Shown: in pieces, positions 4,578 to 55,793 of the stretch
How positions within the stretch are numbered: the first letter of the stretch is position 1
How the letters are laid out: each line of letters begins with the position of its first letter
Assembly (NCBI GenBank): GCA_025677605.1
Contig: GCA_025677605.1_4110.1
Source: a phage
Length of the DNA: 64,000 bases
Direction: 5' to 3' (one strand)
Notes under the pieces: generated by a model
What the model was told of the DNA's origin: nothing
What the model saw: the letters and a program-made list of their open reading frames with translations, nothing else
Databases searched by the model: none
Program-made: the position numbers and the translations under genes

Positions 4578-5819
4578 CTATTTCTTACCGTACCACTGCA
4601 TTTCTCGAATATCGATTAGAACTTTTGCAGCTAGTTGAATGTTTGGTTTCTTTGGTAGAACTGACTTAGGATACACCACATTGCGGATATAGTCAACCTT
4701 TTCATTGAAATAATCCATGACTTCTTCATACTTCCATTTACCGTTGCGGATATCCATTAGCATATCAGCATCAGGACGTTTAACAAGGATAATACCGCTT
4801 TGTAATGCTTCTTCGGCACTATTTAGCAGCCTGATCGTATGCATAGCATGTTTTAGATCGAAGCCGTGCTGTGATTCCATAAGAGCACGTTTAGCATTAC
4901 GATTCTCTTTCCATTTGTGATAACTTTTACGGTTCTCACTGTTCTCACTGTATTCTTTTTCATTGAATTTGACAATGAGTTCAGGTCGTACTTTCAATTC
5001 TTCAGTACTGCGTTCTTTGTTGAAATAACGTAAAGAACCATCAGCGTTAATTGTACTTTCATTAGGATTGATAATAACACCAAAGATATTTTCACCGTAA
5101 TGAATTAATTCGTACCCATTGTTATAATCCAATAAGTTGAAATCACGGTCTAGTACTTTATCAGTACTGTAATTATGTACTAAACGTACAAAATGATACT
5201 GTTTCAACGGATGAGTTGAAACTAACTGCAATGAAGTATCACGCATGTATTTTTCAAAATCTATTTTCTTAGCATTAAATGGATGTAGTTTAGAAGTATC
5301 TAAACGTTCTACCAAATAGTGTGGGAAGTTTTCATACATCCATGCTAAAGTTTCATCTACTGGAAAATCTTCTAAGATTTCATTTAGACGTTTTTCAGCA
5401 ATACGCTCTTTATCCATCCACCCGTGGTGATTGGACATACGCTTAACCTGATTATATGCATAACCGGTATAAGAGAATGCAATCTTAGAACTAAGTAATT
5501 GTTGATTGAATGTACGTAGATAATCATAGATTTCAGTACTTTCTACGATGTGTTCAGGATCAACCCATAGTGATTCAAGGATATTTGGGTTAGCCTCTGT
5601 GTATAGTCTTAAGTACTGATTTAGTTCATAGAATTTAGTATCTTCTTCTCTTGAATCAGAAACTTCTTTTACATTATAAAAAGGTGTCAGAATGAACTCT
5701 TTGTTAGCAAGAAAAATACCACGATAATCCGTATCACTTTCAGGTGTACTGGTTCCATACGCTTGTGAACCTGCTAAGTGCTTCACAATTGTTTGTTCAA
5801 GAAATTTGTTATTATTCAT
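4578..5819 (-). CDS. Pol-beta-superfamily nucleotidyltransferase domain protein
   Basis: N-terminal GSQAYGTSTPESDTDYRGIF fits the GS-x(9-13)-DxD nucleotidyltransferase signature; 413 aa. Confidence 0.55.
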   Translation of the reverse strand: MNNNKFLEQTIVKHLAGSQAYGTSTPESDTDYRGIFLANKEFILTPFYNVKEVSDSREEDTKFYELNQYLRLYTEANPNILESLWVDPEHIVESTEIYDYLRTFNQQLLSSKIAFSYTGYAYNQVKRMSNHHGWMDKERIAEKRLNEILEDFPVDETLAWMYENFPHYLVERLDTSKLHPFNAKKIDFEKYMRDTSLQLVSTHPLKQYHFVRLVHNYSTDKVLDRDFNLLDYNNGYELIHYGENIFGVIINPNESTINADGSLRYFNKERSTEELKVRPELIVKFNEKEYSENSENRKSYHKWKENRNAKRALMESQHGFDLKHAMHTIRLLNSAEEALQSGIILVKRPDADMLMDIRNGKWKYEEVMDYFNEKVDYIRNVVYPKSVLPKKPNIQLAAKVLIDIREMQWYGKK

Positions 5820-6217
5820 AGATGTAATGTTAGCTCCTTAAGAAACCCATTATAGTACTTCATGAAATCTTTATGAAGAACTTTGTATTCTGATAAACTA
5901 AAACCTAGATTGATTATAGTATCTTCTTGAAAGAACTTTTCTTCTTCGGATAAATCCAGAGAAATAGATTGTTTGCCACCATTTAATATTTTAGTAAAGT
6001 GTAAACCATCATTATTGATTTCAACGTACATGAAGTTATTTTCACGGTCACGAGGGCAAACAATATTAATGGAACTTTCACCAGTATCATCGTATTCGAA
6101 TGATATTACATCATACTCCCCGATTCCATAAAATTGTTTATCACTCTTGTAACCACTATATACTTTTTTATACGAATCCATCTGTCTTATGGTGCTATAC
6201 ACATCATCAAGATCCAT
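5816..6217 (-). CDS. hypothetical protein
   Basis: 133 aa ORF, 4-nt overlap with downstream gene. Confidence 0.5.
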   Translation of the reverse strand: MDLDDVYSTIRQMDSYKKVYSGYKSDKQFYGIGEYDVISFEYDDTGESSINIVCPRDRENNFMYVEINNDGLHFTKILNGGKQSISLDLSEEEKFFQEDTIINLGFSLSEYKVLHKDFMKYYNGFLKELTLHL

Positions 6218-6220
6218 ATA

Positions 6221-6724
6221 TTAACTCCTGTAATATTGTAAGTATTCGTTCTTTGCATCATCCAATTCTTTTTGTTCCTGAATTTTATTGTCGATATCTT
6301 TCACGTTAGTAATACTGTTATATAGTGCGTGAAGTACAAGAAAATCAGATACAGAAGTTGAAAAATCCTTCCACCCAACCGATATTTTAATACGCACACG
6401 TATATCACGTCCGTCCATCCAGAACATGAACCCTCGATTCCCACGTAAATCATTAATCATATACACTTTAAAACAAGAATCTCGTGTGCTGCTTTCTAGT
6501 CTTTCAAAATCTACATGAATACTGAACAAGTTTTTTGAACAGTACTTACAAAATGCATAGATAACAGGATCACATTTTGAAAGAAGATATTTGTTTTGGA
6601 TAATTTCTCTGCGATCTTTGTCTGATTTAATATTAGGTACTAATAAAGTACTTTTGTTTAAAATCAACGCAACTAAGTACTGAATAATATCATTATCTTT
6701 TACTTTATGTTTACCGAAGATCAT
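6221..6724 (-). CDS. fibre-module paralogue 3 (possible fibre chaperone or adhesin accessory)
   Basis: 167 aa; shares a K..L..K...D..R..I..K motif with the 166-aa and 186-aa neighbours. Confidence 0.5.
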   Translation of the reverse strand: MIFGKHKVKDNDIIQYLVALILNKSTLLVPNIKSDKDRREIIQNKYLLSKCDPVIYAFCKYCSKNLFSIHVDFERLESSTRDSCFKVYMINDLRGNRGFMFWMDGRDIRVRIKISVGWKDFSTSVSDFLVLHALYNSITNVKDIDNKIQEQKELDDAKNEYLQYYRS

Positions 6725-7224
6725 TAGTATAATCCTTTTAGTTTATTAAATTCATTAAGTTTATGCTGCTCGTATTCTAACTTCTTGTACTTTGTTTCAA
6801 GCTCACGAAGTGCAACGAGTAAATGAAACAAAAACATTTGTTCATGTTTAGGTAGAATATTCGCATCTCCGTTAATATAAACAAATGTATGTTTTTCATC
6901 ATAATCTTTAGATGAATATGTTACTGCATTAAAATCAACCTTAGTTTCGGTATCAAACAATTTTACACGGTTGATATGATTACCATATATGAATACTGGT
7001 TCATATAACCAACGTTCACCGTATGGTTCTTTAACTAGGTCTGTGATTAGTTTCATTAGAGAATGAGAACTTAACATTTCTTTAATTTTAAGTATAGTTC
7101 TACGATCTTCATCAGTACGGATAATTTCTTTTAAAGAATAGCTTTTCATCAGTACTGGAAGAATTAATGTACACCACTCTACATTTTCTCTTTTGTGATC
7201 ATTATTTTTCTTTTTGAAAAACAT
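6724..7224 (-). CDS. fibre-module paralogue 2
   Basis: 166 aa; TLILPVLMKSYSLKEIIRTDEDRRTILKIK aligns with TLVVRLLCKSVTLKDFVKTDNERKSLIELK of the upstream paralogue. Confidence 0.5.
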   Translation of the reverse strand: MFFKKKNNDHKRENVEWCTLILPVLMKSYSLKEIIRTDEDRRTILKIKEMLSSHSLMKLITDLVKEPYGERWLYEPVFIYGNHINRVKLFDTETKVDFNAVTYSSKDYDEKHTFVYINGDANILPKHEQMFLFHLLVALRELETKYKKLEYEQHKLNEFNKLKGLY

Positions 7225-7233
7225 AGTAACCTC

Positions 7234-7794
7234 TTAATATAAATCAGTTATTCTCTTTTGGATTTTGAATTTACGCTGTTCTTCTTCAATTTGTGATAAC
7301 TTTTCTTTAATATCTTCAGCACCAATAATCACATGGAACAGGATCATTAACTCATCGTCATCAAGCATATCATAATGAACACCGAAGTTTGAAGAAACAA
7401 CACATGATAAATCTCTTGATTGAATGATAGTTTCTTCGGTTCTGTGTTCAATCCCTGCTGGTGTATAATCGACCTTAAACATGATTGCATTTTTTAAATC
7501 ACGTAGTGTGAATTCTTCATCACCACCCCACAGTTTTTTTTGAACCATAGACCAACGATCACTGAATGGATTTTGGGTGTATTCTGCCAGTAATCCATAT
7601 AGTTTATGCTTACTTAACTTGTACTTAAGTTCGATAAGTGATTTACGTTCATTATCGGTTTTCACAAAATCTTTAAGAGTTACACTTTTGCATAGCAAAC
7701 GAACTACTAGGGTATTCTGAAAGTGCTGCTCTTTTTCTTTTAAACGTTGTAACTGTGCTGGTGACAGCGGTGGTCTAAAACGTGATTGTACCAT
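7234..7794 (-). CDS. fibre-module paralogue 1
   Basis: 186 aa; ATG at 7794 with strong AGGAGG RBS; first of three tandem paralogues downstream of the fibre genes. Confidence 0.55.
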   Translation of the reverse strand: MVQSRFRPPLSPAQLQRLKEKEQHFQNTLVVRLLCKSVTLKDFVKTDNERKSLIELKYKLSKHKLYGLLAEYTQNPFSDRWSMVQKKLWGGDEEFTLRDLKNAIMFKVDYTPAGIEHRTEETIIQSRDLSCVVSSNFGVHYDMLDDDELMILFHVIIGAEDIKEKLSQIEEEQRKFKIQKRITDLY

Positions 7795-7835
7795 AGTTTC
7801 CTCCTAGTTTTTTAGCATTATACGGATAAAAGAAA

Positions 7836-7856
7836 AGCCTGTCAATAGACAGGCTT
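7836..7856. terminator. hairpin terminator (bidirectional context)
   Basis: 8-bp stem agcctgtc/gacaggct with loop aata, flanked by A-rich and T-rich runs; just downstream of fibre gene. Confidence 0.5.
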
Positions 7857-7863
7857 AATTTTT

Positions 7864-10605
7864 TTAACTCCAACGAGTACCAGATTGTGATGGTAACCCA
7901 GAACTAGCTGGGATAGCAGAACCACGATTGTAGGTACTTGGGCGGTATAGCAAGAATCTGGACACTTTTTCAGACTCGATTGATGCAATACCATTAGCAT
8001 CAGTTACTATCTTACCAATGTAGGTTGATGTCATAGTTTCTGATAATTGATATAGTGATATCTGATACGAAGCTGTAGATGTACCTCTATCCATAACCGC
8101 ATATATGTAGAATGTTGAATTATCTGGTGTAGTACTTATGGTAGATAAGTCTATCATAGTCGGTGGTATCTTTGCAAACTTTCCACCCAAGAAAACTGGT
8201 ACTTCTTGTGAAAAGTACACGTTGAACCCTTGTGCCACATCCTGTGAAGCAACAACTAAGTACTGTGATATCGTTTCATTACCAGATATTAGTTTATCCA
8301 TATCTGCTTCAGTAGTACCACATACAGCAAAAACTGATTTAGTTTGATAATCGTTTTTGTTCATTTGGTAATATCCAAACCCAATCCCTGGAATTGTACC
8401 TATATCAAATTGTGCGTTTGAAATATAAGTTGTTTCCATATATCGTTGACTTGAAATAATACCATTTTTCACTTTAGCAATCATGTTAGGATAACGAGTC
8501 CAACCTGGGGTATCAATGCCATATAAAATGTTCACACCTAAGTAGTTAAAACCACTAAACTTAGCAACAGTCATACCAGCCCAACGTTTGATCATTTCAT
8601 TTGGTGAAATTTGGAATGTATTCGTGATTGATGTATATCTTGCTGTATCAACACTAATACCACGTAAAATTATAGTACCACTTGTACCCAGTGCACTACA
8701 TGATATTTCGGAAAAAATAATATAACACACGTTGGTAGTACCGTTTAGTGCAGAAGTGACTGCAATAGATTTAGAATATGTAGTATCAGGTACATAATAA
8801 AAAACAGTTTTATGTTCAGTTATTCCAGTCAATCCGGCTTTAGCAACGGCATTATAACCTATACCTGATAATGTAGTTCCTGAAATTTCATATCTATCAC
8901 TGTTAAAGTCCATTGTAACAGGGTCGAATTTTCCATAAGCTGGTTTATCGATACCTTCTATTAAAGAAGATCCATAAGTGCTGACATTTCCATTGGCATC
9001 AACCAATGTTACCATACCTGCATATTTGTAATCAGTACTTAAATAGTGTCTATTACCTGATGGTGCAAAACCATTCATTGTGGTATTTTGTTCCAAGTTT
9101 TTATAACTATAAGTTGGATTCTCACCTATTTCAGTAAAAACTGTACTATCATAACCATAAGAAATTCCATCAGCAGTACCAGAACATGCAACAAGTATCT
9201 TACGTTTATCTACGAAACGAACACCTATTAAGTTTTCACCGACAGGGGAGCCATAAACTGGCATTACTTCTACACGTTTTAAATTACTACCAGTACGTGT
9301 TTTAGCAACCCAACTATCATAAGGTGTACCAGAAACTTTGTATGTTTGTACTGCATAGGTCGGCATGGATGACCATCTTGCTTTGGTAGTGAAAACAAAA
9401 CCATCAGAAGTTTGACAGATTGAACCATAGTTACCAAGTGCACCATCATAAAACCCTGTAAAGTTTTCCATATTGATTGAAAACGGGTTACTCACTGTTA
9501 TACTACCAGTTGATGTATTAGCTGATACTCTGATTGGACCACGTTCAGAACCGTCAAGTGTCATTGTTTTAGTACTGATATCATATGTAAAGCTGATACC
9601 AAGTGCATATACACCAGATGTTTTTGTTGCGGTAAAGACACGAAACCCTGGATATATCGCTACTCTTATTTTTGTACCATCAGGACTGATAACTGCTTGT
9701 GTATTAAATGCGTTATTTTCCCAATAATCTATTCTGGAAACACCATTATCATATGCTATTAGTGCATCACCACCTGAACCCAACACTGAATAACTATCAT
9801 AAACACGAATATTATTAGATGCAGTGTATGTTACATTTCTTATAGTTCTTCCTGAATAACCACTAATCTGTGTTACTGTCGAAACTGAACCAGTATTAAA
9901 TGCAGTTAAAGGTACTGTGTATATGATAAATGCACACCCGCGAACACTACTCAATACACTTGAATCCATACACCATATATAAACTGAATCATTTACGATG
10001 TGTGCATAGATTGGTTTATTTGTTATTGCTGTTTTTGGAATTCTGCAATGTTTGTGTGCTGATTCATTTAATGTTTCATTTGTTAATGTAAGGTAGTATG
10101 ATGCTCTATCAGTTGATTCCCAAAATAGTAATTCATATGCATTTGACCCATAAAATTCATAAATGTAATCAGTGCTTGGTAGCACAGAAGGTCTATACAT
10201 CGTGTTGGTTGTAATTATATTATCTTGAGTTAGTGTTTCTATATCTCTTATATTTTTAATATAAGCATAATAGTAACCATACGAACTTCCATTTGTACCT
10301 GCACGTAAAATTACACCAGTACCATCATTTTCAATGATACAAGGTTGCATTATTTTTGCAAATGAAAAGGAAGAAGCACCTTCAAATGTACCGTTAATAC
10401 TCATCGGTAGGTAATCTTGATCACCTACCCTTGAAACTGGAAGCATATCAAACATCTGATCTACTTCCGCTTTGTCATAATATTGGTAAGTGATTTTACC
10501 AGCAGAATCAGCAGGGAATCCATTAAAGGAACGTAATGCATACTTTCCATTAATTTTCAAATTCCCTAGTATTTCTGCGTTTCCTATAATTCGTCTCGAA
10601 GCCAT
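7864..10605 (-). CDS. tail fibre protein
   Basis: ~913 aa, Gly/Ser/Thr/Asn/Tyr-rich; C-terminal ~120 aa shared with the two upstream fibre ORFs; ATG at 10605 with AAGGA RBS (track start 10632 is upstream alternative). Confidence 0.7.
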   Translation of the reverse strand: MASRRIIGNAEILGNLKINGKYALRSFNGFPADSAGKITYQYYDKAEVDQMFDMLPVSRVGDQDYLPMSINGTFEGASSFSFAKIMQPCIIENDGTGVILRAGTNGSSYGYYYAYIKNIRDIETLTQDNIITTNTMYRPSVLPSTDYIYEFYGSNAYELLFWESTDRASYYLTLTNETLNESAHKHCRIPKTAITNKPIYAHIVNDSVYIWCMDSSVLSSVRGCAFIIYTVPLTAFNTGSVSTVTQISGYSGRTIRNVTYTASNNIRVYDSYSVLGSGGDALIAYDNGVSRIDYWENNAFNTQAVISPDGTKIRVAIYPGFRVFTATKTSGVYALGISFTYDISTKTMTLDGSERGPIRVSANTSTGSITVSNPFSINMENFTGFYDGALGNYGSICQTSDGFVFTTKARWSSMPTYAVQTYKVSGTPYDSWVAKTRTGSNLKRVEVMPVYGSPVGENLIGVRFVDKRKILVACSGTADGISYGYDSTVFTEIGENPTYSYKNLEQNTTMNGFAPSGNRHYLSTDYKYAGMVTLVDANGNVSTYGSSLIEGIDKPAYGKFDPVTMDFNSDRYEISGTTLSGIGYNAVAKAGLTGITEHKTVFYYVPDTTYSKSIAVTSALNGTTNVCYIIFSEISCSALGTSGTIILRGISVDTARYTSITNTFQISPNEMIKRWAGMTVAKFSGFNYLGVNILYGIDTPGWTRYPNMIAKVKNGIISSQRYMETTYISNAQFDIGTIPGIGFGYYQMNKNDYQTKSVFAVCGTTEADMDKLISGNETISQYLVVASQDVAQGFNVYFSQEVPVFLGGKFAKIPPTMIDLSTISTTPDNSTFYIYAVMDRGTSTASYQISLYQLSETMTSTYIGKIVTDANGIASIESEKVSRFLLYRPSTYNRGSAIPASSGLPSQSGTRWS

Positions 10606-10615
10606 ATATATTCCT

Positions 10616-11206
10616 TTACCATTCTGTCCCACTATTCACATCTGGTGTACCAGAACTGATAGGGATAGCTGAACCAATTTTTGTAGCACTTACTCTGAAG
10701 TCGTCAAATCTTGACACTTTATTTATACTGACCCCTGTAATGCCATCTGGGAAAACTGTCAGTTGTCCTATGTACATATTAACACTACTTTCAGGGCGTT
10801 GAGTTTTAGAAATGAGGTAGTCAGCTACCCCAACATCTAATATAACATATACATAATGTGTTTCAATATTAGTACCAGTAACTCCTGGGTCCGTTATTGT
10901 TTTAGCAGGGAGGGTATAAACCGCTCCCGCCATGAACAATGGTAATTCTTTACTGAAAGTCAATTTGAATCCAGCGGCAGTAATACCTAATGGTTCATTA
11001 CTGTAAAGTGAACCAAATTGTGATAACGGAAAGGAACTGGTAATGTAATTCACATCATCTGTACTCATGAGTGGTACATCAACATTCCCATTAGCATCAG
11101 CTTGATACACATTACCAGAACGATCAGTTATCGTGGTCCCAGTATTTTTTCCTTGTGATTTAACGGAAGCATACGCTTCCACATCAGATCTAAATTTATA
11201 AGCCAT
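10616..11206 (-). CDS. small tail-fibre-related protein
   Basis: 196 aa; C-terminus (...KVSRFDDFRVSATKIGSAIPISSGTPDVNSGTEW) is homologous to the C-termini of the flanking large fibre proteins. Confidence 0.6.
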   Translation of the reverse strand: MAYKFRSDVEAYASVKSQGKNTGTTITDRSGNVYQADANGNVDVPLMSTDDVNYITSSFPLSQFGSLYSNEPLGITAAGFKLTFSKELPLFMAGAVYTLPAKTITDPGVTGTNIETHYVYVILDVGVADYLISKTQRPESSVNMYIGQLTVFPDGITGVSINKVSRFDDFRVSATKIGSAIPISSGTPDVNSGTEW

Positions 11207-21566: not shown

Positions 21567-22313
21567 TCATACATCCTCCTTGGGGTATAATTTTCTAAAT
21601 TCAGTCATCAGTTTGTTACGAATCGGTTTCGCATAATCAATAACAGCTTGTGCTTTTACATGATAATCACCATATGTTTCATCATATATCTTATAGATGT
21701 TGTCGCGAATGTTCAGCATTTCAAGCACATCAAACTCTTGTTTCATTGACGCAATATTCATTTCATGTTCAGTATTGGATCTGTACAGATTGTAATAATG
21801 CGTAATGATATAGATGAAGTGAATGCTATGCCAGATGTTCTTCAGTCCTAACATCTTATCGTAATCTTCCAGTACTGTCAACTTCTTTTTTCCTTTATTA
21901 AAGGCTTTATCTGATGCAGTACTGCAAATTTTACGAATCTCACTGTTACGGCGTGTCATCATAACCGAACCGATATGACCAAGGTACATCAAAAGATGAT
22001 TTGCACATTTCGGTACAATAGTACCAAAACCGATGGTATAGTATTTAACATCACCACGCATTAATTCGACACGAAGATGATTGAGAGTCATACATTCAAT
22101 ATTGACAGGTATATCAATACAATCTAATTTTACAGAGAACTCACCTTCTTCAAACTCTTCTGGTACTATATTAATAACATCAATATCATTTGGTAATTTG
22201 TCATCATACTTATACAAACAAAAAGTATTCCACGAACCATAGATAAATGGGCATTTATAACCAATTTTGATTAGTTCGGTGATGATTGCTTCGGTTTGTT
22301 TTTCAAGATCCAT
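21567..22313 (-). CDS. hypothetical protein, possible minimal nucleotidyltransferase
   Basis: 248 aa; IYGSWNTFCLYKYDDKLPNDIDV loosely fits GS...DxD; weak. Confidence 0.45.
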   Translation of the reverse strand: MDLEKQTEAIITELIKIGYKCPFIYGSWNTFCLYKYDDKLPNDIDVINIVPEEFEEGEFSVKLDCIDIPVNIECMTLNHLRVELMRGDVKYYTIGFGTIVPKCANHLLMYLGHIGSVMMTRRNSEIRKICSTASDKAFNKGKKKLTVLEDYDKMLGLKNIWHSIHFIYIITHYYNLYRSNTEHEMNIASMKQEFDVLEMLNIRDNIYKIYDETYGDYHVKAQAVIDYAKPIRNKLMTEFRKLYPKEDV

Positions 22314-22646: not shown

Positions 22647-22714
22647 GATTTACTTCCTTCTTCGATAATGGTGTGTTCATTATAGCAATGAACACATTTA
22701 ATGTCAATAATAGA

Positions 22715-24154
22715 TTACATATTTTCTTCTGCAAACTCTGCAAGTGCAGAACGTACAACACCTTCCAATTCAATGATACGACACCCTTCCCAATCTTTGA
22801 ATTTTTCAGTTACATATGTCAAACCACTATTAACTGGACTAATAAACTTACTATCAATCTGTGCTAAGTTACCCATAATGATAACCTTACAGTTTTGACC
22901 TGCACGGGTAAGAATAGTTTTTGCCTGTGCAGGGGTGATGTTCTGGAATTCATCAACAATTAGAATTGTATTAGTAAAAGAACGACCACGAATAAAGTTC
23001 AATGCTTTAAACTGCATTACGTTACGTTTGAGAATCTCTTCAATGCTACCTTGTGGGTTAGCATCATCTTTGTGTAGATACTCTAGAGCATCGATTGCAG
23101 CCCCACAGAATGGGATGACCTTTTCAGCTTCAGAACCGGGTAAGAAACCAATTTCTTCAAATTGTGAATCTTGTGTTTTGGAGAAGATGATACGATCGTA
23201 TTTACGCTTCTCTAGTACTAATTCGAGTGAAGTAGCAACAGTAATCAATGTTTTACCAGTACCTGCTGAACCAAGTAGTACTGTCAAATGTACATCAGGG
23301 TCAAGAATACTGTTAATTGCTAGTGCCTGTTGAATATTCTTTGCTTTAATATCCCAAACTTTAGCACGAAGAGCGATACTTTGACCAATATCCTGGAATA
23401 CCAAAATATCTTCAGGTGTTAGTGAACCGTCTTCTTCTTCGATAGCAGATTGACCTTCGTATACGAATAGTACATCAGCATTATCATATAGATAATCACC
23501 AATACATAGATTATCTGGAAGAACATCTTGAATCAATGCGGTTGGAATATAGTGATATAGACGGCGACCTTCTTGTTGGGATTTAATTTCAGCATTGTTA
23601 ACTTCACTGAATGTTTTCCAGAAATCAATATCAAGGTGGTGCTGCCCAATATGAATCAACTCACTATCTTCGATTGCAACGTCATGACGGTAATCTTGTA
23701 CCTCAACACCGTAGCTCATTGCTTTGATACGCATGTTAATGTCGCGAGTTACCAGTACTGATTGTGATGCCAAAGCCACTAGAATGATTTTGTCATCTGG
23801 TACAGTACTTTTAAGTAGAGTTTCTACTTTATCTTCACTGCCGCCCATACGAATAAGTGCTTCAGCTTCTTCATTCGTCATAACGAATAGCTTACTGGAT
23901 GCATCCATATTTTTGTGGATATTGGCAATATTAACACCAGTACTGCTGATTTCTTCATGAGTAGCATCTTTCAAAATTGCATCGATGTTACGGATTGCGA
24001 AACGTGCATCACGTGATACGTCAACATTACGGCTCTTGATTGAATCAAGTTCTTCAAGAACAGTGAATGGTAGAATCACTGCTGCCCCATCAAATGCTAC
24101 GGTTGCATTTGGATCGGATAGTAGTACGTTTGTGTCAATTGTGTATTTTTTCAT
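22715..24154 (-). CDS. phoH: PhoH-family ATPase with N-terminal PIN domain (YlaK-like)
   Basis: Walker A GSAGTGKT; N-terminal PIN-like region; likely ATG at 24154 (MKKYTIDTN) with AGGA RBS. Confidence 0.75.
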   Translation of the reverse strand: MKKYTIDTNVLLSDPNATVAFDGAAVILPFTVLEELDSIKSRNVDVSRDARFAIRNIDAILKDATHEEISSTGVNIANIHKNMDASSKLFVMTNEEAEALIRMGGSEDKVETLLKSTVPDDKIILVALASQSVLVTRDINMRIKAMSYGVEVQDYRHDVAIEDSELIHIGQHHLDIDFWKTFSEVNNAEIKSQQEGRRLYHYIPTALIQDVLPDNLCIGDYLYDNADVLFVYEGQSAIEEEDGSLTPEDILVFQDIGQSIALRAKVWDIKAKNIQQALAINSILDPDVHLTVLLGSAGTGKTLITVATSLELVLEKRKYDRIIFSKTQDSQFEEIGFLPGSEAEKVIPFCGAAIDALEYLHKDDANPQGSIEEILKRNVMQFKALNFIRGRSFTNTILIVDEFQNITPAQAKTILTRAGQNCKVIIMGNLAQIDSKFISPVNSGLTYVTEKFKDWEGCRIIELEGVVRSALAEFAEENM

Positions 24155-24218
24155 AAAACATCCTTGAGTTATGAGCACATCCTTGTGCTCTACGGTAGAT
24201 TATAGACTCAGACACTTC

Positions 24219-45421: not shown

Positions 45422-46354
45422 TCAAAATAGTCCAGGTTCCACCTGAAATACTTTCAAGCCTAGTAGCTTACGCCACATGAATACAACGGCGGCCCTGTCA
45501 TCAAATACTTTCTTAACATCGTAATGATTAACAACGTTATTCATATACAACTCGAATTTGACAACATCATCAGGACGTTTATCATCGATAGCTCGCATTA
45601 ACAATACATCGTAGGGAATGCCCCAATTCTTAAGCCACTGTTCAGTATCAGCACGACACCCTTCAGTACGCCCACTCATGACGATTACCTTACGCTTATG
45701 GAAAACAGCCTCAGCAATGACAGACAGAATTACTTCTTCATCTGGTGTATCCTGAAGGACAGTACTTTCATCAAACGGGTTACGTCCCCACTTATGAGCA
45801 AGAGTACCGTCGATATCAACAATGATAGCAGCTTCACGTGCATTACCATAGTAACCAATGTGTAATGCCTTTCTATAATAGTACGTATCTGCCATTGTGT
45901 CAATGATATCATATTGAACTGAACGCTCACGCTGGAGGTTATATTTCTTACAAAGTTTTACGAACTCTTTAATCTTAAAGAATTCATGAACATCTGCACC
46001 ACGGTCTTCATTAGGCACAAAATCATCATAGAAGTTCTTTTCTTTGTAATCATAACCATTATCTTTAGCCCAACGTTTCCATTCATCACGAAAACCTTGT
46101 TTCAGGTTCGTATCGGACACAATAATATTCCATCCATTCGCTGCTGCGGCGTTTGCTGCACTGAACTGTTGATTAGTTACGTACTTCTCGTTCGCATCAG
46201 TGAATTTATAAGCATCATGTGACCCAGCCATAGACTCTCGAATATCATCACGGTTGATGTTGATAGTCTTGGACTTTGCTTTTTTAATTTCTTGCACTGC
46301 CCACGTGGTTTTACCACATCCTGGCAATCCAACTGTTAGTGTAATAGTTGGCAT
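45422..46354 (-). CDS. pseT: polynucleotide 5-prime kinase / 3-prime phosphatase
   Basis: N-terminal P-loop GLPGCGKTT and C-terminal HAD-phosphatase motif IVDIDGTLA; 310 aa, near T4 Pnk size. Confidence 0.85.
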   Translation of the reverse strand: MPTITLTVGLPGCGKTTWAVQEIKKAKSKTININRDDIRESMAGSHDAYKFTDANEKYVTNQQFSAANAAAANGWNIIVSDTNLKQGFRDEWKRWAKDNGYDYKEKNFYDDFVPNEDRGADVHEFFKIKEFVKLCKKYNLQRERSVQYDIIDTMADTYYYRKALHIGYYGNAREAAIIVDIDGTLAHKWGRNPFDESTVLQDTPDEEVILSVIAEAVFHKRKVIVMSGRTEGCRADTEQWLKNWGIPYDVLLMRAIDDKRPDDVVKFELYMNNVVNHYDVKKVFDDRAAVVFMWRKLLGLKVFQVEPGLF

Positions 46355-47427: not shown

Positions 47428-48573
47428 CTAAAAATCCTTTAGTACATCTTTGTAGTACTTTAGTAAAGTCTCTTTATAATCGACACTTTTGCCATTGTAC
47501 AACGCAAAGGCCAAGCCTTGTCGGTTCAATACATTAGGTAAATCTTGCTGAACCTTTTGAGCGAATTCCTTTCGCTCTAAGTGCTTGTATGCATGGACGA
47601 AGCTTTCTACCTCATCTTGTAAAGCATTATAGCACGAAAATACCAATTGTTCCATTCTTAATATCTTATCCATAGCATATGTATCAGTACTGAACAATTG
47701 TTTTAAGTCATCACTTGCACCAGTCAGTACAGCTTCATATAAATGGGAATCAATAAGAATGGAATCTTTTGTTAAATGCAAAGAGCAATACCAGTCAGTT
47801 TTGATTTTGCACATTGTACCATCTTTCATTATACACACAAAACCTTCAATGTCAAGCATAGAACGTACTTTATCGATTGACTCTTTAAATGTAGGCATAA
47901 TCGGGAATGTATGATGAATGTCATTACCTGTCATATTAGTACTGTACTGTGAAAGGCATGGAAACTTATCACGTAGTGCTTTACCGCATAACAACTCACC
48001 ACTAATACGATGACGAACGTTAAGAACAAATAACTGTTCCACCTGATATGGTAACACAATTCGATACTCTGGGCTTGTGTATTCCAGATTCACAGTATAG
48101 CCCAAACGGTCTGCTTCATCAATGTATTGATAGAGATTTTGGTTCTCGTTCAAAAGTCGAGTACTGTTAATAGCATGGTCAGAAGATAACGAAGTGTGTG
48201 ATTTGCAACGGATTTCACCATCATTATCACGGAATGTGCTGATGATAGATCCATCTAGCTTAGGCATTACAACCGCAATATCATCACAGGTAGTATCAGC
48301 ACTGAACATTGTGTACGGGTTTTCATATGCATTGAAGAACTTTTTCATTGTACGTGCTGCACAACGAATCATAATTCCGTTGGAATCAATTTCCCACATA
48401 GAACCACGAGTTTCTAGTGCATTTTTATTTGTGAAATCGGTATAAGATGCCAGACGATAGGTGAATACACGGTATAAACCACCACCAGGGCTTGTGTGAT
48501 CTATATAGAAAAATGCATCATTAGATTCACATAGTTCCATTAAATCATTGTATATTTCTCGTAAATTACTCAT
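47428..48573 (-). CDS. rnlA: RNA ligase 1
   Basis: 381 aa; adenylation motif VMPKLDGS (KxDG); size and context match T4 RnlA. Confidence 0.85.
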   Translation of the reverse strand: MSNLREIYNDLMELCESNDAFFYIDHTSPGGGLYRVFTYRLASYTDFTNKNALETRGSMWEIDSNGIMIRCAARTMKKFFNAYENPYTMFSADTTCDDIAVVMPKLDGSIISTFRDNDGEIRCKSHTSLSSDHAINSTRLLNENQNLYQYIDEADRLGYTVNLEYTSPEYRIVLPYQVEQLFVLNVRHRISGELLCGKALRDKFPCLSQYSTNMTGNDIHHTFPIMPTFKESIDKVRSMLDIEGFVCIMKDGTMCKIKTDWYCSLHLTKDSILIDSHLYEAVLTGASDDLKQLFSTDTYAMDKILRMEQLVFSCYNALQDEVESFVHAYKHLERKEFAQKVQQDLPNVLNRQGLAFALYNGKSVDYKETLLKYYKDVLKDF

Positions 48574-55257: not shown

Positions 55258-55793
55258 GGTTCTTTCCTCATGTATTTTATTACATCTTTAAAAAGTTTTA
55301 TTTTCAAGTCATTATCATCACCTGGTAGATAAGAACTGAAGCTTTCAAAATCATCACGCTTAGCAAAAGAACGCATTTCAGTTGAACTGTACTTGCTAAC
55401 GGTTCGGTCTATACCAGCTTGGATTGCTTTTATATTACGAAAATTATACAAGTTTCCATTGTATCTGTCAAGTACATTTTGAAAGTTTTCTATCCTGTCT
55501 GAACCACATATGAAAAGAACATCACTGTACTTACCATTCAATTCCTGCATAATATCAAAAAGATTATCTTCAGTACTGATGTTGTGTTGAATTCTTGGAT
55601 AGAAACCCTCAGTGTAATACATTTTCAATTCAGGTGGTAATGGATTCTTAATACAATCTTGTGTAGTACTAAGGTATATTTTTAAATCAGCATTGTATTG
55701 TTCTTTCATCGATACGGCTTTATCAAAAATTAACCCATGTCCCAAATGCACTGGATTTATACGTCCATACGTTACTATACAAGTGTCTTTCAT
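55254..55793 (-). CDS. HxGH-family nucleotidyltransferase, NMNAT-like (PPAT-like not excluded)
   Basis: TYGRINPVHLGH (T/HxGH motif) and C-terminal SKYSSTEMR (ISSTxxR-type motif). Confidence 0.6.
   Translation of the reverse strand: MKDTCIVTYGRINPVHLGHGLIFDKAVSMKEQYNADLKIYLSTTQDCIKNPLPPELKMYYTEGFYPRIQHNISTEDNLFDIMQELNGKYSDVLFICGSDRIENFQNVLDRYNGNLYNFRNIKAIQAGIDRTVSKYSSTEMRSFAKRDDFESFSSYLPGDDNDLKIKLFKDVIKYMRKEP

What the first reader, a model, noticed from the sequence alone, without database searches (positions are those of the whole stretch)
4578..5819. Pol-beta-type nucleotidyltransferase in the fibre-proximal accessory block
The N-terminus has a GS-x-DxD nucleotidyltransferase signature followed by a ~300-aa uncharacterised C-terminal region. 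Enzymes of this fold include tRNA or RNA-repair nucleotidyltransferases and signal-nucleotide synthases, so its role (RNA repair alongside pseT and rnlA, or anti-defence) is undetermined. A weaker GS...DID candidate is at 21567-22313.
Basis: partly seen in the sequence, partly recalled or inferred. Interest (0 to 1): 0.45.

Follow-up and report, generated by a model that had tools for sequence, protein, structure and literature searches.

The report
Phage RlaP-type RNA-repair nucleotidyltransferase, long form
This gene of a giant E. coli phage encodes a member of the known RlaP family, enzymes that add one or two nucleotides to broken RNA ends before ligation; it is ordinary apart from a large extra module inserted between its two standard domains.

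Summary
The ORF is real: window 4578-5819, minus strand, 413 aa. The signature is real: G17-S18-x10-D29-x-D31 plus D60, all invariant in 29 homologs. It is not an orphan Pol-beta enzyme. It passes Pfam's RlaP model (PF10127; 64 bits against a cutoff of 23). A canonical 280-aa phage RlaP that covers the whole Pfam profile aligns to both ends of it (hhalign probability 99.35%). Residues 11-130 are the RlaP transferase half and 309-406 the RlaP C-terminal helical half. Residues 131-308 are an insert; 140-200 occur only in the Rak2/121Q jumbo-phage clade. The window comes from an Asteriusvirus (94% nt identity to phage A4). It also encodes a PseT-type kinase/phosphatase and an Rnl1 RNA ligase about 40 kb away, the same trio as phage T4 (NrdC.11, PseT, Rnl1). 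Pseudomonas RlaPs were shown in 2025 to add 1-2 NMPs to RNA 3'-OH ends, preferring cleaved tRNA. The likely role is therefore nucleotide restoration during tRNA repair. This is inferred, and gene neighbourhoods of close relatives are mixed. The second candidate (21567-22313) is a plausible divergent minimal Pol-beta-fold protein, unconfirmed. Verdict: new member of a known kind, low-to-moderate interest.

The parts
4578..5819 (-). Gene for a 413-aa long-form RlaP-family (PF10127) nucleotidyltransferase
   Evidence: ORF. Pfam RlaP at 64.1 bits against a cutoff of 23. phrog_388 at E 1.3e-73. 100% identical to database protein P0001, and nearly all listed homologs carry PF10127. dN/dS 0.07-0.10.
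5430..5819 (-). N-terminal Pol-beta nucleotidyltransferase domain (aa 1-130)
   Evidence: Pfam RlaP profile positions 25-144 match aa 15-132. hhalign to canonical RlaP gp123 covers aa 11-130. The AF2 model has pLDDT 92 and the expected helix-strand order.
5727..5771 (-). Catalytic motif G17-S18-x10-D29-T-D31
   Evidence: All four residues invariant in 29 of 29 sequences.
5640..5642 (-). Third catalytic carboxylate, D60
   Evidence: Invariant in 29 of 29 sequences. Aligns with an Asp of T4-type NrdC.11.
4896..5429 (-). Insert module (aa 131-308) between the two canonical RlaP domains: a long helix, a helical sub-insert and a four-stranded beta unit
   Evidence: hhalign to the 280-aa canonical RlaP leaves this stretch unaligned. 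Secondary structure comes from the AF2 model. No Pfam hit.
5220..5402 (-). Clade-specific 61-aa insertion (aa 140-200), present only in Rak2/121Q-type jumbo phages
   Evidence: Absent from all 16 short-form (~350 aa) homologs in alignment A1. Modelled as short helices at pLDDT about 86-96.
4581..4895 (-). C-terminal helical domain (aa 309-413), homologous to the canonical RlaP C-terminal domain; a HEPN-like bundle
5816..6217 (-). 133-aa ORF of unknown function, overlapping the RlaP start by ATGA (possible translational coupling)
   Evidence: phrog_22376 at E 2.4e-60 and no Pfam hit. Conserved directly upstream of the RlaP gene in loci L007-L011 at 44-65% identity. Overlap read directly.
7817..7856 (-). 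Terminator-like hairpin (7856-7835) overlapping a perfect sigma-70 consensus promoter (TTGACA-17-TATAAT, 7845-7817), at the head of the five-gene block 7794->4578 that ends with the RlaP gene
   Evidence: 4 perfect consensus sites in the window against 0.23 expected. The hairpin and promoter are conserved, with compensatory stem changes, in L001, L007, L009 and L011.
45422..46354 (-). PseT-type polynucleotide kinase/3'-phosphatase, the presumed end-healing partner
   Evidence: PF25109 at E 5.1e-42 plus PF13671. phrog_505 at E 7e-94.
47428..48573 (-). T4 Rnl1-type RNA ligase, the presumed sealing partner
   Evidence: PF09511 at E 1.8e-15 plus PF20819 at E 7e-15. phrog_562 at E 1.8e-106.
21567..22313 (-).
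   Evidence: G26, S27, D43 and D45 invariant in 28 homologs. Weak Pfam hits among members: DUF6932 in 14 of 28, Polbeta in 8 of 28, NTP_transf_2 in 3 of 28. The AF2 model has pLDDT 91 and the order helix-strand-[GS]helix-strand[DxD]-strand-strand followed by five long helices. No relationship to RlaP by hhalign.

Best explanation
The gene encodes a long-form member of the RlaP family (PF10127) of Pol-beta nucleotidyltransferases.

Proposed mechanism: two metal ions, probably Mn2+, are held by D29, D31 and D60. They activate the 3'-OH of a broken RNA, which attacks the alpha-phosphate of an NTP bound in the cleft between the transferase domain and the basic C-terminal helical domain. One or two nucleotides are added.

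Proposed role in infection: this restores nucleotides removed from host or phage tRNAs by nucleases that both cut and trim, such as RloC-type anticodon nucleases. It would act after the phage PseT kinase/phosphatase has produced a 3'-OH and a 5'-phosphate, and before the phage Rnl1 ligase seals the break.

Shown here: family membership of both domains, the intact catalytic residues, purifying selection, and presence of PseT and Rnl1 in the same genome window.

Inferred: the activity (from Pseudomonas RlaPs), the tRNA substrate, and the order of steps. The role of the 178-aa insert is unknown; it may take part in substrate recognition.
For: Family and catalytic site:
- Pfam RlaP at 64.1 bits against a cutoff of 23.
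- Bacillus phage Emiliahah gp123 matches the full RlaP profile (positions 4-248 of 249, 75 bits). It aligns to our aa 11-130 and 309-406 at hhalign probability 99.35%, E 6.6e-21.
- T4-type NrdC.11, placed in the RlaP family by PMC12776372, aligns over 274 columns at probability 97.7%.
- G17, S18, D29, D31 and D60 are invariant. Many invariant basic residues lie in the C-terminal domain.
- Fold searches return only Pol-beta nucleotidyltransferases and HEPN-like bundles.

Repair partners:
- PseT (45422-46354) and Rnl1 (47428-48573) are in the window. A CCA-adding enzyme is annotated in the closest genome, phage A4.
- In Vibrio phage D69 the homolog (33% identity over 95% of the query) sits within 6 kb of a CCA-adding enzyme, Thg1, Rnl1 and a polynucleotide kinase.
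- A CCA-adding enzyme lies within 10 kb in 17 of 33 full-flank viral loci outside the jumbo clade.

Literature:
- PfRlaP and PaRlaP add 1-2 NMP to RNA 3'-OH ends. They prefer a cleaved-tRNA mimic, prefer Mn2+ and do not act on DNA (PMC12776372).
- RlaP is the most prevalent nucleotidyltransferase in jumbo phages, and its distribution mirrors that of RNA ligases (PMC7824862).

Expression and selection:
- A consensus sigma-70 promoter heads the block.
- dN/dS is 0.07-0.10.
Against: - No activity has been measured for this protein or for any long-form or phage RlaP. The characterised enzymes belong to a different sequence cluster (1a; T4 NrdC.11 is in cluster 5).
- The gene is not next to repair genes here. 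Rnl1 and PseT lie about 40 kb away, and no Rnl1, PseT or CCA enzyme lies within 10 kb in ten jumbo-clade loci.
- In about 45 of 80 viral loci the homolog sits in a replication/recombination module: gp32-like SSB, RecA/UvsX-like recombinase, UvsW-like helicase and clamp loader.
- In cyanobacterial chromosomes the neighbours are housekeeping genes.
- The 178-aa insert between the domains could change substrate choice.
- The proposed in vivo role of RlaP is still a hypothesis even for the Pseudomonas enzymes.
Confidence: 0.6

Rival explanations
1. It works on tRNA 3' ends rather than anticodon loops. In this reading it partners the phage CCA-adding enzyme, restoring or tailing acceptor-end nucleotides after host attack on tRNA 3' termini, or it marks RNAs by short tailing.
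For: The only recurrent tRNA-related neighbour of the long-form homologs is a CCA-adding enzyme, usually 1-4 kb upstream on the same strand. It occurs in 17 of 43 full-flank viral loci across lineages at 29-52% identity, and also in phages D69 and EspYZU14. RlaP also labels full-length tRNAs and rRNAs in total RNA.
Against: In this phage clade the CCA enzyme is about 17 kb away and outside the window. PfRlaP preferred the 5' half of a cleaved tRNA mimic over the 3' acceptor end. Linkage may partly reflect shared ancestry of the loci.
Confidence: 0.15
2. It acts on DNA or replication intermediates, for example as a terminal transferase on DNA or primer ends during recombination-dependent replication.
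For: In a large uncultured phage lineage (about 45 of 80 loci, 33-41% identity) the homolog lies between gp32-like and RecA/UvsX-like genes on one side and a UvsW-like helicase, clamp loader and PolIII-alpha fragment on the other. In Bacillus phage Emiliahah the canonical RlaP sits between ribonucleotide reductase genes and the DNA polymerase gene. PfRlaP accepts dATP as donor.
Against: PfRlaP and PaRlaP did not extend DNA 3'-OH ends in any combination tested. Phage early-gene modules mix unrelated functions. This phage places the gene among fibre genes, not replication genes.
Confidence: 0.07
3. It synthesises a nucleotide or oligonucleotide signal or decoy for anti-defence, in the manner of a CD-NTase or the Hailong HalB oligo-dA synthase.
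Against: The scores are weak (TM 0.19-0.32, 14-18% identity). PADLOC gave no hit. CdnE and CdnC matches have probability 0.11 or less. Sequence places both domains firmly in RlaP, whose characterised members add only 1-2 nucleotides to RNA.
Confidence: 0.04
4. It is a small-molecule nucleotidyltransferase of the kanamycin/lincosamide (KNTase, LinB, ANT) type, or it has a moonlighting role in tail-fibre assembly suggested by its position among fibre genes (compare T4 Rnl1 = gp63).
For: Fold-level resemblance to KNTase/ANT(4'), LinB and AAD(9). The position between fibre-like genes is conserved across the jumbo clade. PHROGs names the Rnl1 family 'RNA ligase and tail fiber protein attachment catalyst'.
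Confidence: 0.04

Closest known systems
RlaP family (Pfam PF10127): PfRlaP and PaRlaP of Pseudomonas (Carruthers, Fatma & Huang 2025, PMC12776372)
   Same: Same Pfam family above threshold. Same three conserved aspartates. The same two domains, an N-terminal transferase domain and a C-terminal helical domain, shown through a canonical phage RlaP as bridge. The genome also encodes RNA-repair enzymes.
   Different: Ours carries a 178-aa insert between the two domains, 61 aa of it specific to the jumbo clade. Pfam's profile matches only the N-terminal half directly. The gene is not in an RtcB or RNA-ligase operon. It probably falls in a different sequence cluster from the characterised enzymes. 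Its activity is untested.
Phage T4 NrdC.11, the T4 member of RlaP (function unknown)
   Same: A phage-encoded long form (337 aa in phage AR1) that aligns from the transferase motif to the C-terminal G-x-D-x-K...H..R helix (hhalign probability 97.7%). T4 likewise encodes PseT and Rnl1 at separate loci.
   Different: Only about 27% identity, confined to the N-terminal domain by BLAST. The middle region differs. It lacks the 61-aa jumbo-clade insertion.
Jumbo-phage RlaP as catalogued by Iyer et al. 2021 (PMC7824862)
   Same: That survey describes RlaP as the most prevalent nucleotidyltransferase of jumbo phages, tracking RNA ligases, and predicts that it restores nucleotides before ligation. This gene fits that description.
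   Different: The paper's supplementary tables were not available, so I could not check whether 121Q-type phages were listed individually. The insert architecture is not described in the text I could read.
Hailong HalB and KNTase/ANT-type nucleotidyltransferases (closest solved structures)
   Different: The resemblance is at fold level only, with 9-18% identity. The acceptor substrates differ: a protein-primed oligo-dA for HalB, antibiotics for the ANT type. There is no sequence-family match.

Membership tests
RlaP (PF10127) | Match to the Pfam model above its gathering score | tested here: met
   64.1 bits against a cutoff of 23, E 2.1e-17, aa 15-132 on profile positions 25-144 of 249. PF10127 is precomputed for nearly all homologs.
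RlaP (PF10127) | Pol-beta catalytic signature: G[GS], DxD and a third strictly conserved aspartate | tested here: met
   G17, S18, D29, D31 and D60 are invariant in 29 of 29 sequences. D60 aligns with an Asp of NrdC.11.
RlaP (PF10127) | C-terminal helical domain homologous to that of canonical RlaP | tested here: met
   The Pfam profile does not detect it directly. However, Emiliahah gp123 matches profile positions 4-248, and its residues 175-272 align to our aa 309-406 within one hhalign hit of probability 99.35%.
RlaP (PF10127) | Contiguous two-domain architecture of about 250-280 aa | tested here: not met
   A 178-aa insert (aa 131-308) separates the domains. This is a variation of architecture; the homologous parts are all present.
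RlaP (PF10127) | Gene next to an RNA ligase gene (the origin of the family name) | tested here: not met
   Rnl1 and PseT lie about 40 kb away in the window, and none lies within 10 kb in ten jumbo-clade loci. Co-occurrence holds only at the level of the genome.
RlaP (PF10127) | Adds 1-2 NMP to RNA 3'-OH ends, prefers Mn2+, does not act on DNA | not testable with these tools
   Biochemistry is known only for PfRlaP and PaRlaP (PMC12776372).
CD-NTase / CBASS signal synthases | Sequence or fold match to CD-NTases | tested here: not met
   No PADLOC hit at E up to 0.1. Foldseek matches to CdnE and CdnC have probability 0.03-0.11.
MNT-HEPN toxin-antitoxin / HEPN RNases | Conserved Rx4-6H motif in the helical bundle | tested here: not met
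Class II CCA-adding enzymes | Match to the tRNA nucleotidyltransferase/poly(A) polymerase head domain | tested here: not met
   Pfam returned no family other than RlaP for this protein. A separate CCA-adding enzyme is annotated in the closest genome (A4_536).
Pol-beta nucleotidyltransferase superfamily (second candidate, 21567-22313) | GS and DxD motifs, a third carboxylate, and the fold | tested here: inconclusive
   G26, S27, D43 and D45 are invariant, but no third acidic residue is invariant. All Pfam hits are below threshold: DUF6932 at 14.3 bits against 27 for our protein, with a best member E of 1.1e-5. The secondary-structure order fits the fold.

The most novel reading that the evidence does not exclude
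The 178-aa module inserted between the two RlaP domains is shared in shorter form with T4 NrdC.11, many phages and cyanobacterial chromosomes, and is enlarged in Rak2/121Q jumbo phages. It may retarget the enzyme to a substrate other than cleaved anticodon loops. Candidates include tRNA acceptor ends handled together with the CCA enzyme, or nucleic-acid ends in replication and recombination. It may act with the translationally coupled 133-aa protein. In that case long-form RlaPs would be a functionally distinct subfamily that the Pseudomonas biochemistry does not describe.
Probability: 0.2. Interest if true: 0.5.

Novelty: new member of a known kind. Interest (0 to 1): 0.2.

Why it matters
The finding gives a generically annotated 'nucleotidyltransferase' of 121Q/Rak2-type jumbo phages a specific family and a testable activity. 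With it, these phages appear to carry the same tRNA-repair set as T4: an end healer, a nucleotide restorer and a ligase.

The practical value is modest. It yields a candidate counter-measure to trimming anticodon nucleases such as RloC, and a natural long-form RlaP in which to test what the inserted module does. It does not open a new kind of system.

Tried and rejected
- Sequence searches of the PDB with the protein and with the family profile found nothing. The PfRlaP crystal structure is apparently not in the copy searched.
- The AlphaFold-database fold library was unavailable, so no full-length comparison with cellular RlaP models was possible. BFVD returned only phage 'nucleotidyltransferases'.
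- NCBIfam and PADLOC gave no hits.
- I guessed that ORF165 of Cronobacter phage EspYZU14 might be an Rnl1. BLASTP showed no similarity.
- hhalign of the second candidate's family against the RlaP alignment showed no relationship (probability 0.1%). Its profile found nothing meaningful in the PDB.
- A Pfam scan of the C-terminal 140 aa alone gave no RlaP hit. Homology of that region had to be shown through a bridging sequence.
- There are no tRNA genes in the window.
- The Burroughs & Aravind 2016 paper that named RlaP is not held. The supplements of Iyer et al. 2021 are not held.
- The RaK2 genome paper lists a CCA enzyme, a polynucleotide kinase and an RNA ligase, but does not mention this gene.
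- A terminator-like site inside the gene (5222-5201) was set aside as chance: 3 sites found against 1.3 expected, with a weak stem.

Full report
**What is there**

Window 4578-5819 on the minus strand is a 413-aa ORF. An AAGGAG ribosome-binding site lies 13 nt upstream of its ATG. The start overlaps the stop of the upstream 133-aa ORF in the form ATGA.

The window is AT-rich (about 35% GC), and almost all genes are on the minus strand. By megablast the gene is 94% identical to Escherichia phage A4 and about 82% identical to 121Q, PBECO4 and related phages. These are 350-kb jumbo phages of the genus Asteriusvirus, in which the gene is annotated 'nucleotidyltransferase' or 'hypothetical protein'. 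An identical protein is already in public databases as 'nucleotidyltransferase domain-containing protein' (P0001).

- The N-terminus reads ...HLAG17S18QAYGTSTPESD29TD31YRGIF..., followed by ...EED60TKFYE....
- In an alignment of 29 homologs reaching down to about 45% identity, G17, S18, D29, D31 and D60 are invariant.
- dN/dS is 0.10 against A4 and 0.065 against a 121Q-like phage.

**Which family**

[quoted passage not shown] Only aa 15-132 match, on profile positions 25-144 of 249. PHROGs places the whole length in phrog_388, 'nucleotidyltransferase' (E 1.3e-73). NCBIfam and PADLOC return nothing.

T4-type NrdC.11 is counted as the T4 member of RlaP in the 2025 RlaP study (PMC12776372). It aligns with our family from the GS motif to the C-terminal helices (hhalign probability 97.7%, E 1.9e-12, 274 columns). 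It too matches the Pfam profile only in its N-terminal half.

**The '~300-aa uncharacterised' part**

A tblastn hit to the C-terminal 100 residues led to Bacillus phage Emiliahah gp123, a 280-aa protein.

- gp123 matches the whole RlaP profile (positions 4-248 of 249, 75 bits).
- It aligns to our family at hhalign probability 99.35%, E 6.6e-21.
- gp123 residues 47-174 correspond to our aa 11-130, and residues 175-272 to our aa 309-406. Nothing aligns in between.

The protein is therefore a canonical RlaP in both halves, interrupted by a 178-aa insert (aa 131-308). Within that insert, aa 140-200 are present only in the jumbo-phage clade and are absent from all ~350-aa relatives.

**Predicted structure**

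An AlphaFold2 model built on the alignment is confident (pLDDT 92, pTM 0.83). It shows:

- the transferase domain;
- a very long helix (aa 113-151);
- short helices formed by the clade-specific piece;
- a four-stranded beta unit (aa 211-285);
- a terminal helical bundle (aa 287-410).

Solved structures match only weakly, and all at fold level:

No Rx4-6H motif is conserved in the bundle, so a HEPN RNase activity is not expected. In BFVD the matches are phage 'nucleotidyltransferases'.

**What RlaP does, from the literature**

Carruthers, Fatma and Huang (bioRxiv, December 2025, PMC12776372) characterised two Pseudomonas RlaPs.

- They label only RNA among E. coli macromolecules.
- They add one or two NMPs to a 3'-OH and accept all four NTPs as well as dATP.
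- They do not extend DNA. They prefer Mn2+ or Co2+.
- They prefer the 5' half of a cleaved-tRNA mimic.
- They raise aminoacylation of a tRNA that had lost one anticodon-loop nucleotide before ligation.
- The crystal structure has a transferase domain, a C-terminal helical domain and a basic cleft.
- The authors propose RlaP as the antidote to nucleases that cut and then trim, such as RloC.

Iyer et al. 2021 (PMC7824862) had already described RlaP as the most prevalent nucleotidyltransferase of jumbo phages. They noted that its distribution mirrors that of RNA ligases, and predicted that it restores lost nucleotides before ligation.

**Context in this phage**

The window encodes a PseT-type kinase/phosphatase at 45422-46354 (PF25109 at E 5e-42, phrog_505). 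It also encodes a T4 Rnl1-type ligase at 47428-48573 (PF09511 and PF20819, phrog_562). Phage A4 in addition annotates a CCA-adding enzyme about 17 kb on the other side of the gene, outside the window. The RlaP product, a 3'-OH end, is what an Rnl1-type ligase needs. The trio is thus chemically coherent and parallels T4.

The gene is not adjacent to these partners. It closes a tightly packed five-gene block (7794->4578) lying between fibre-type genes. The block holds three paralogous small ORFs, a 133-aa ORF and the RlaP gene. It starts just after a terminator-like hairpin that overlaps a perfect sigma-70 consensus promoter (TTGACA-17-TATAAT, 7845-7817). Four such perfect sites occur in the window, all on the coding strand, against 0.23 expected. 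The hairpin-promoter unit is conserved, with compensatory stem changes, in A4, a 121Q-like contig and two contigs at about 60% protein identity. This suggests host-polymerase (early) expression. That reading would fit a repair or counter-defence enzyme better than a structural one, but it is an inference.

**Context in relatives is mixed**

- In ten jumbo-clade loci the arrangement 'fibre paralogs, then small ORFs, then RlaP' is conserved, and no Rnl1, PseT or CCA enzyme lies within 10 kb.
- Outside that clade, a CCA-adding enzyme lies within 10 kb in 17 of 33 full-flank viral loci.
- In Vibrio phage D69 the homolog sits within 6 kb of a CCA enzyme, Thg1, Rnl1 and a polynucleotide kinase.
- An unbiased clustering of neighbours showed that about 45 of 80 viral loci place the homolog in a replication/recombination module: gp32-like, RecA/UvsX-like, UvsW-like, clamp loader.
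- Full-length ~355-aa homologs in cyanobacterial and other bacterial chromosomes have housekeeping neighbours.

The 'RNA ligase-associating' property is therefore not seen at operon level for this long-form branch. For that reason I put 0.6, not more, on the tRNA-repair mechanism. Family membership itself is close to certain.

**Second candidate (21567-22313, minus strand)**

This is a real 248-aa ORF. Its 28 detectable homologs appear confined to Rak2-type jumbo phages, for example GAP32_124.

- G26, S27, D43 and D45 are invariant, but no third acidic residue is.
- Our protein has only a sub-threshold hit to DUF6932. Across the family, 14 members hit DUF6932 (best E 1.1e-5), 8 hit Polbeta and 3 hit NTP_transf_2.
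- The AF2 model (pLDDT 91) has the order helix, strand, [GS] helix, strand [DxD], strand, strand, followed by five long helices. This fits a minimal nucleotidyltransferase with a helical partner domain.
- It is unrelated to RlaP by profile comparison.

**Verdict**

The finding is correct and can be filed precisely: a long-form RlaP-family RNA 3'-end nucleotidyltransferase of an Asteriusvirus jumbo phage. The family, its presence in jumbo phages and its activity are all published, so novelty is low. What I did not find described in the papers available here is:

- the insert architecture, and its enlargement in this clade;
- the lack of operon-level linkage to repair genes in this branch;
- the conserved fibre-block position behind a terminator-promoter unit.

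Interest 0.2.

Noticed in passing
window 7817-7856 (-); also L001 17960-18003, L007 ~7935-7975, L009 7555-7597: A terminator-like hairpin has the -35 TTGACA hexamer in its loop and 3' arm. A TATAAT hexamer follows 17 nt downstream, then AGGAGG and the first gene of the accessory block. The unit is conserved across jumbo phages at 56-87% protein identity, with compensatory stem changes (AAGCCTGTC/GACAGGCTT against GAGGTTGTC/GACAGCCTC).
   Followed up: partly
window 7817-7845, 22679-22707, 47828-47855, 55443-55471 (all -): Four perfect sigma-70 consensus promoters lie on the coding strand, against 0.23 expected by chance. The one at 47828-47855 lies inside the Rnl1 coding sequence, upstream of the region that leads to pseT. 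The one at 22679-22707 lies upstream of the second nucleotidyltransferase candidate.
   Followed up: partly
window 6221-7794 (-): Three tandem paralogous ORFs of 186, 166 and 167 aa (phrog_18641 / phrog_7868, unknown function, no Pfam hit) lie directly upstream of the 133-aa ORF and the RlaP gene. They diverge quickly between related phages (25-38% identity in the 121Q-like locus).
   Followed up: partly
window 5816-6217 (-): A 133-aa ORF (phrog_22376, no Pfam hit) shares an ATGA overlap with the RlaP start. It is conserved immediately upstream of the RlaP gene in loci L007-L011 (44-65% identity) and could be a functional partner.
   Followed up: partly
L019-L072 (viral contigs), e.g. L057 8783-11990: In a large uncultured phage lineage the long-form RlaP homolog sits between gp32-like and RecA/UvsX-like genes on one side and a UvsW-like helicase, clamp loader and PolIII-alpha fragment on the other. 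This is a replication/recombination module, not an RNA-repair cluster.
   Followed up: partly
L092-L166 (bacterial genome contigs), e.g. L110 6001-7065 (Chlorogloeopsis fritschii PCC 6912 chromosome): Full-length ~355-aa long-form RlaP homologs (26-40% identity) are widespread in cyanobacteria, Abditibacteriota and Planctomycetes. Their neighbours are housekeeping genes (aminotransferase, GNAT, ChlI-like AAA, L11/L1/NusG, L21), and no RNA-repair genes lie within 6 kb.
   Followed up: partly
window 22715-24178 (-): A 487-aa protein fuses an N-terminal PIN domain (PF13638, E 1e-21) to a PhoH-like ATPase (PF02562, E 1e-43). This is a PIN nuclease-type domain joined to an ATPase, encoded by the phage itself.
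   Followed up: no
window 7864-10632 (-) and L001 11908-17954: The 922-aa fibre-like protein has no Pfam hit. It belongs to a set of tandem paralogs (26-40% identity) upstream in the related genomes. The set varies in copy number and length between jumbo phages.
   Followed up: no
BFVD entries A0A2Z5HJ75 (134 aa) and A0A2Z5HFQ2 (432 aa): In one close relative (84-86% identity) the gene appears to be annotated as two proteins: an N-terminal 134-aa piece and a 432-aa piece. This suggests a split, a frameshift or an insertion in that phage. Phage CMSTMSU showed two matching places in the megablast.
   Followed up: no
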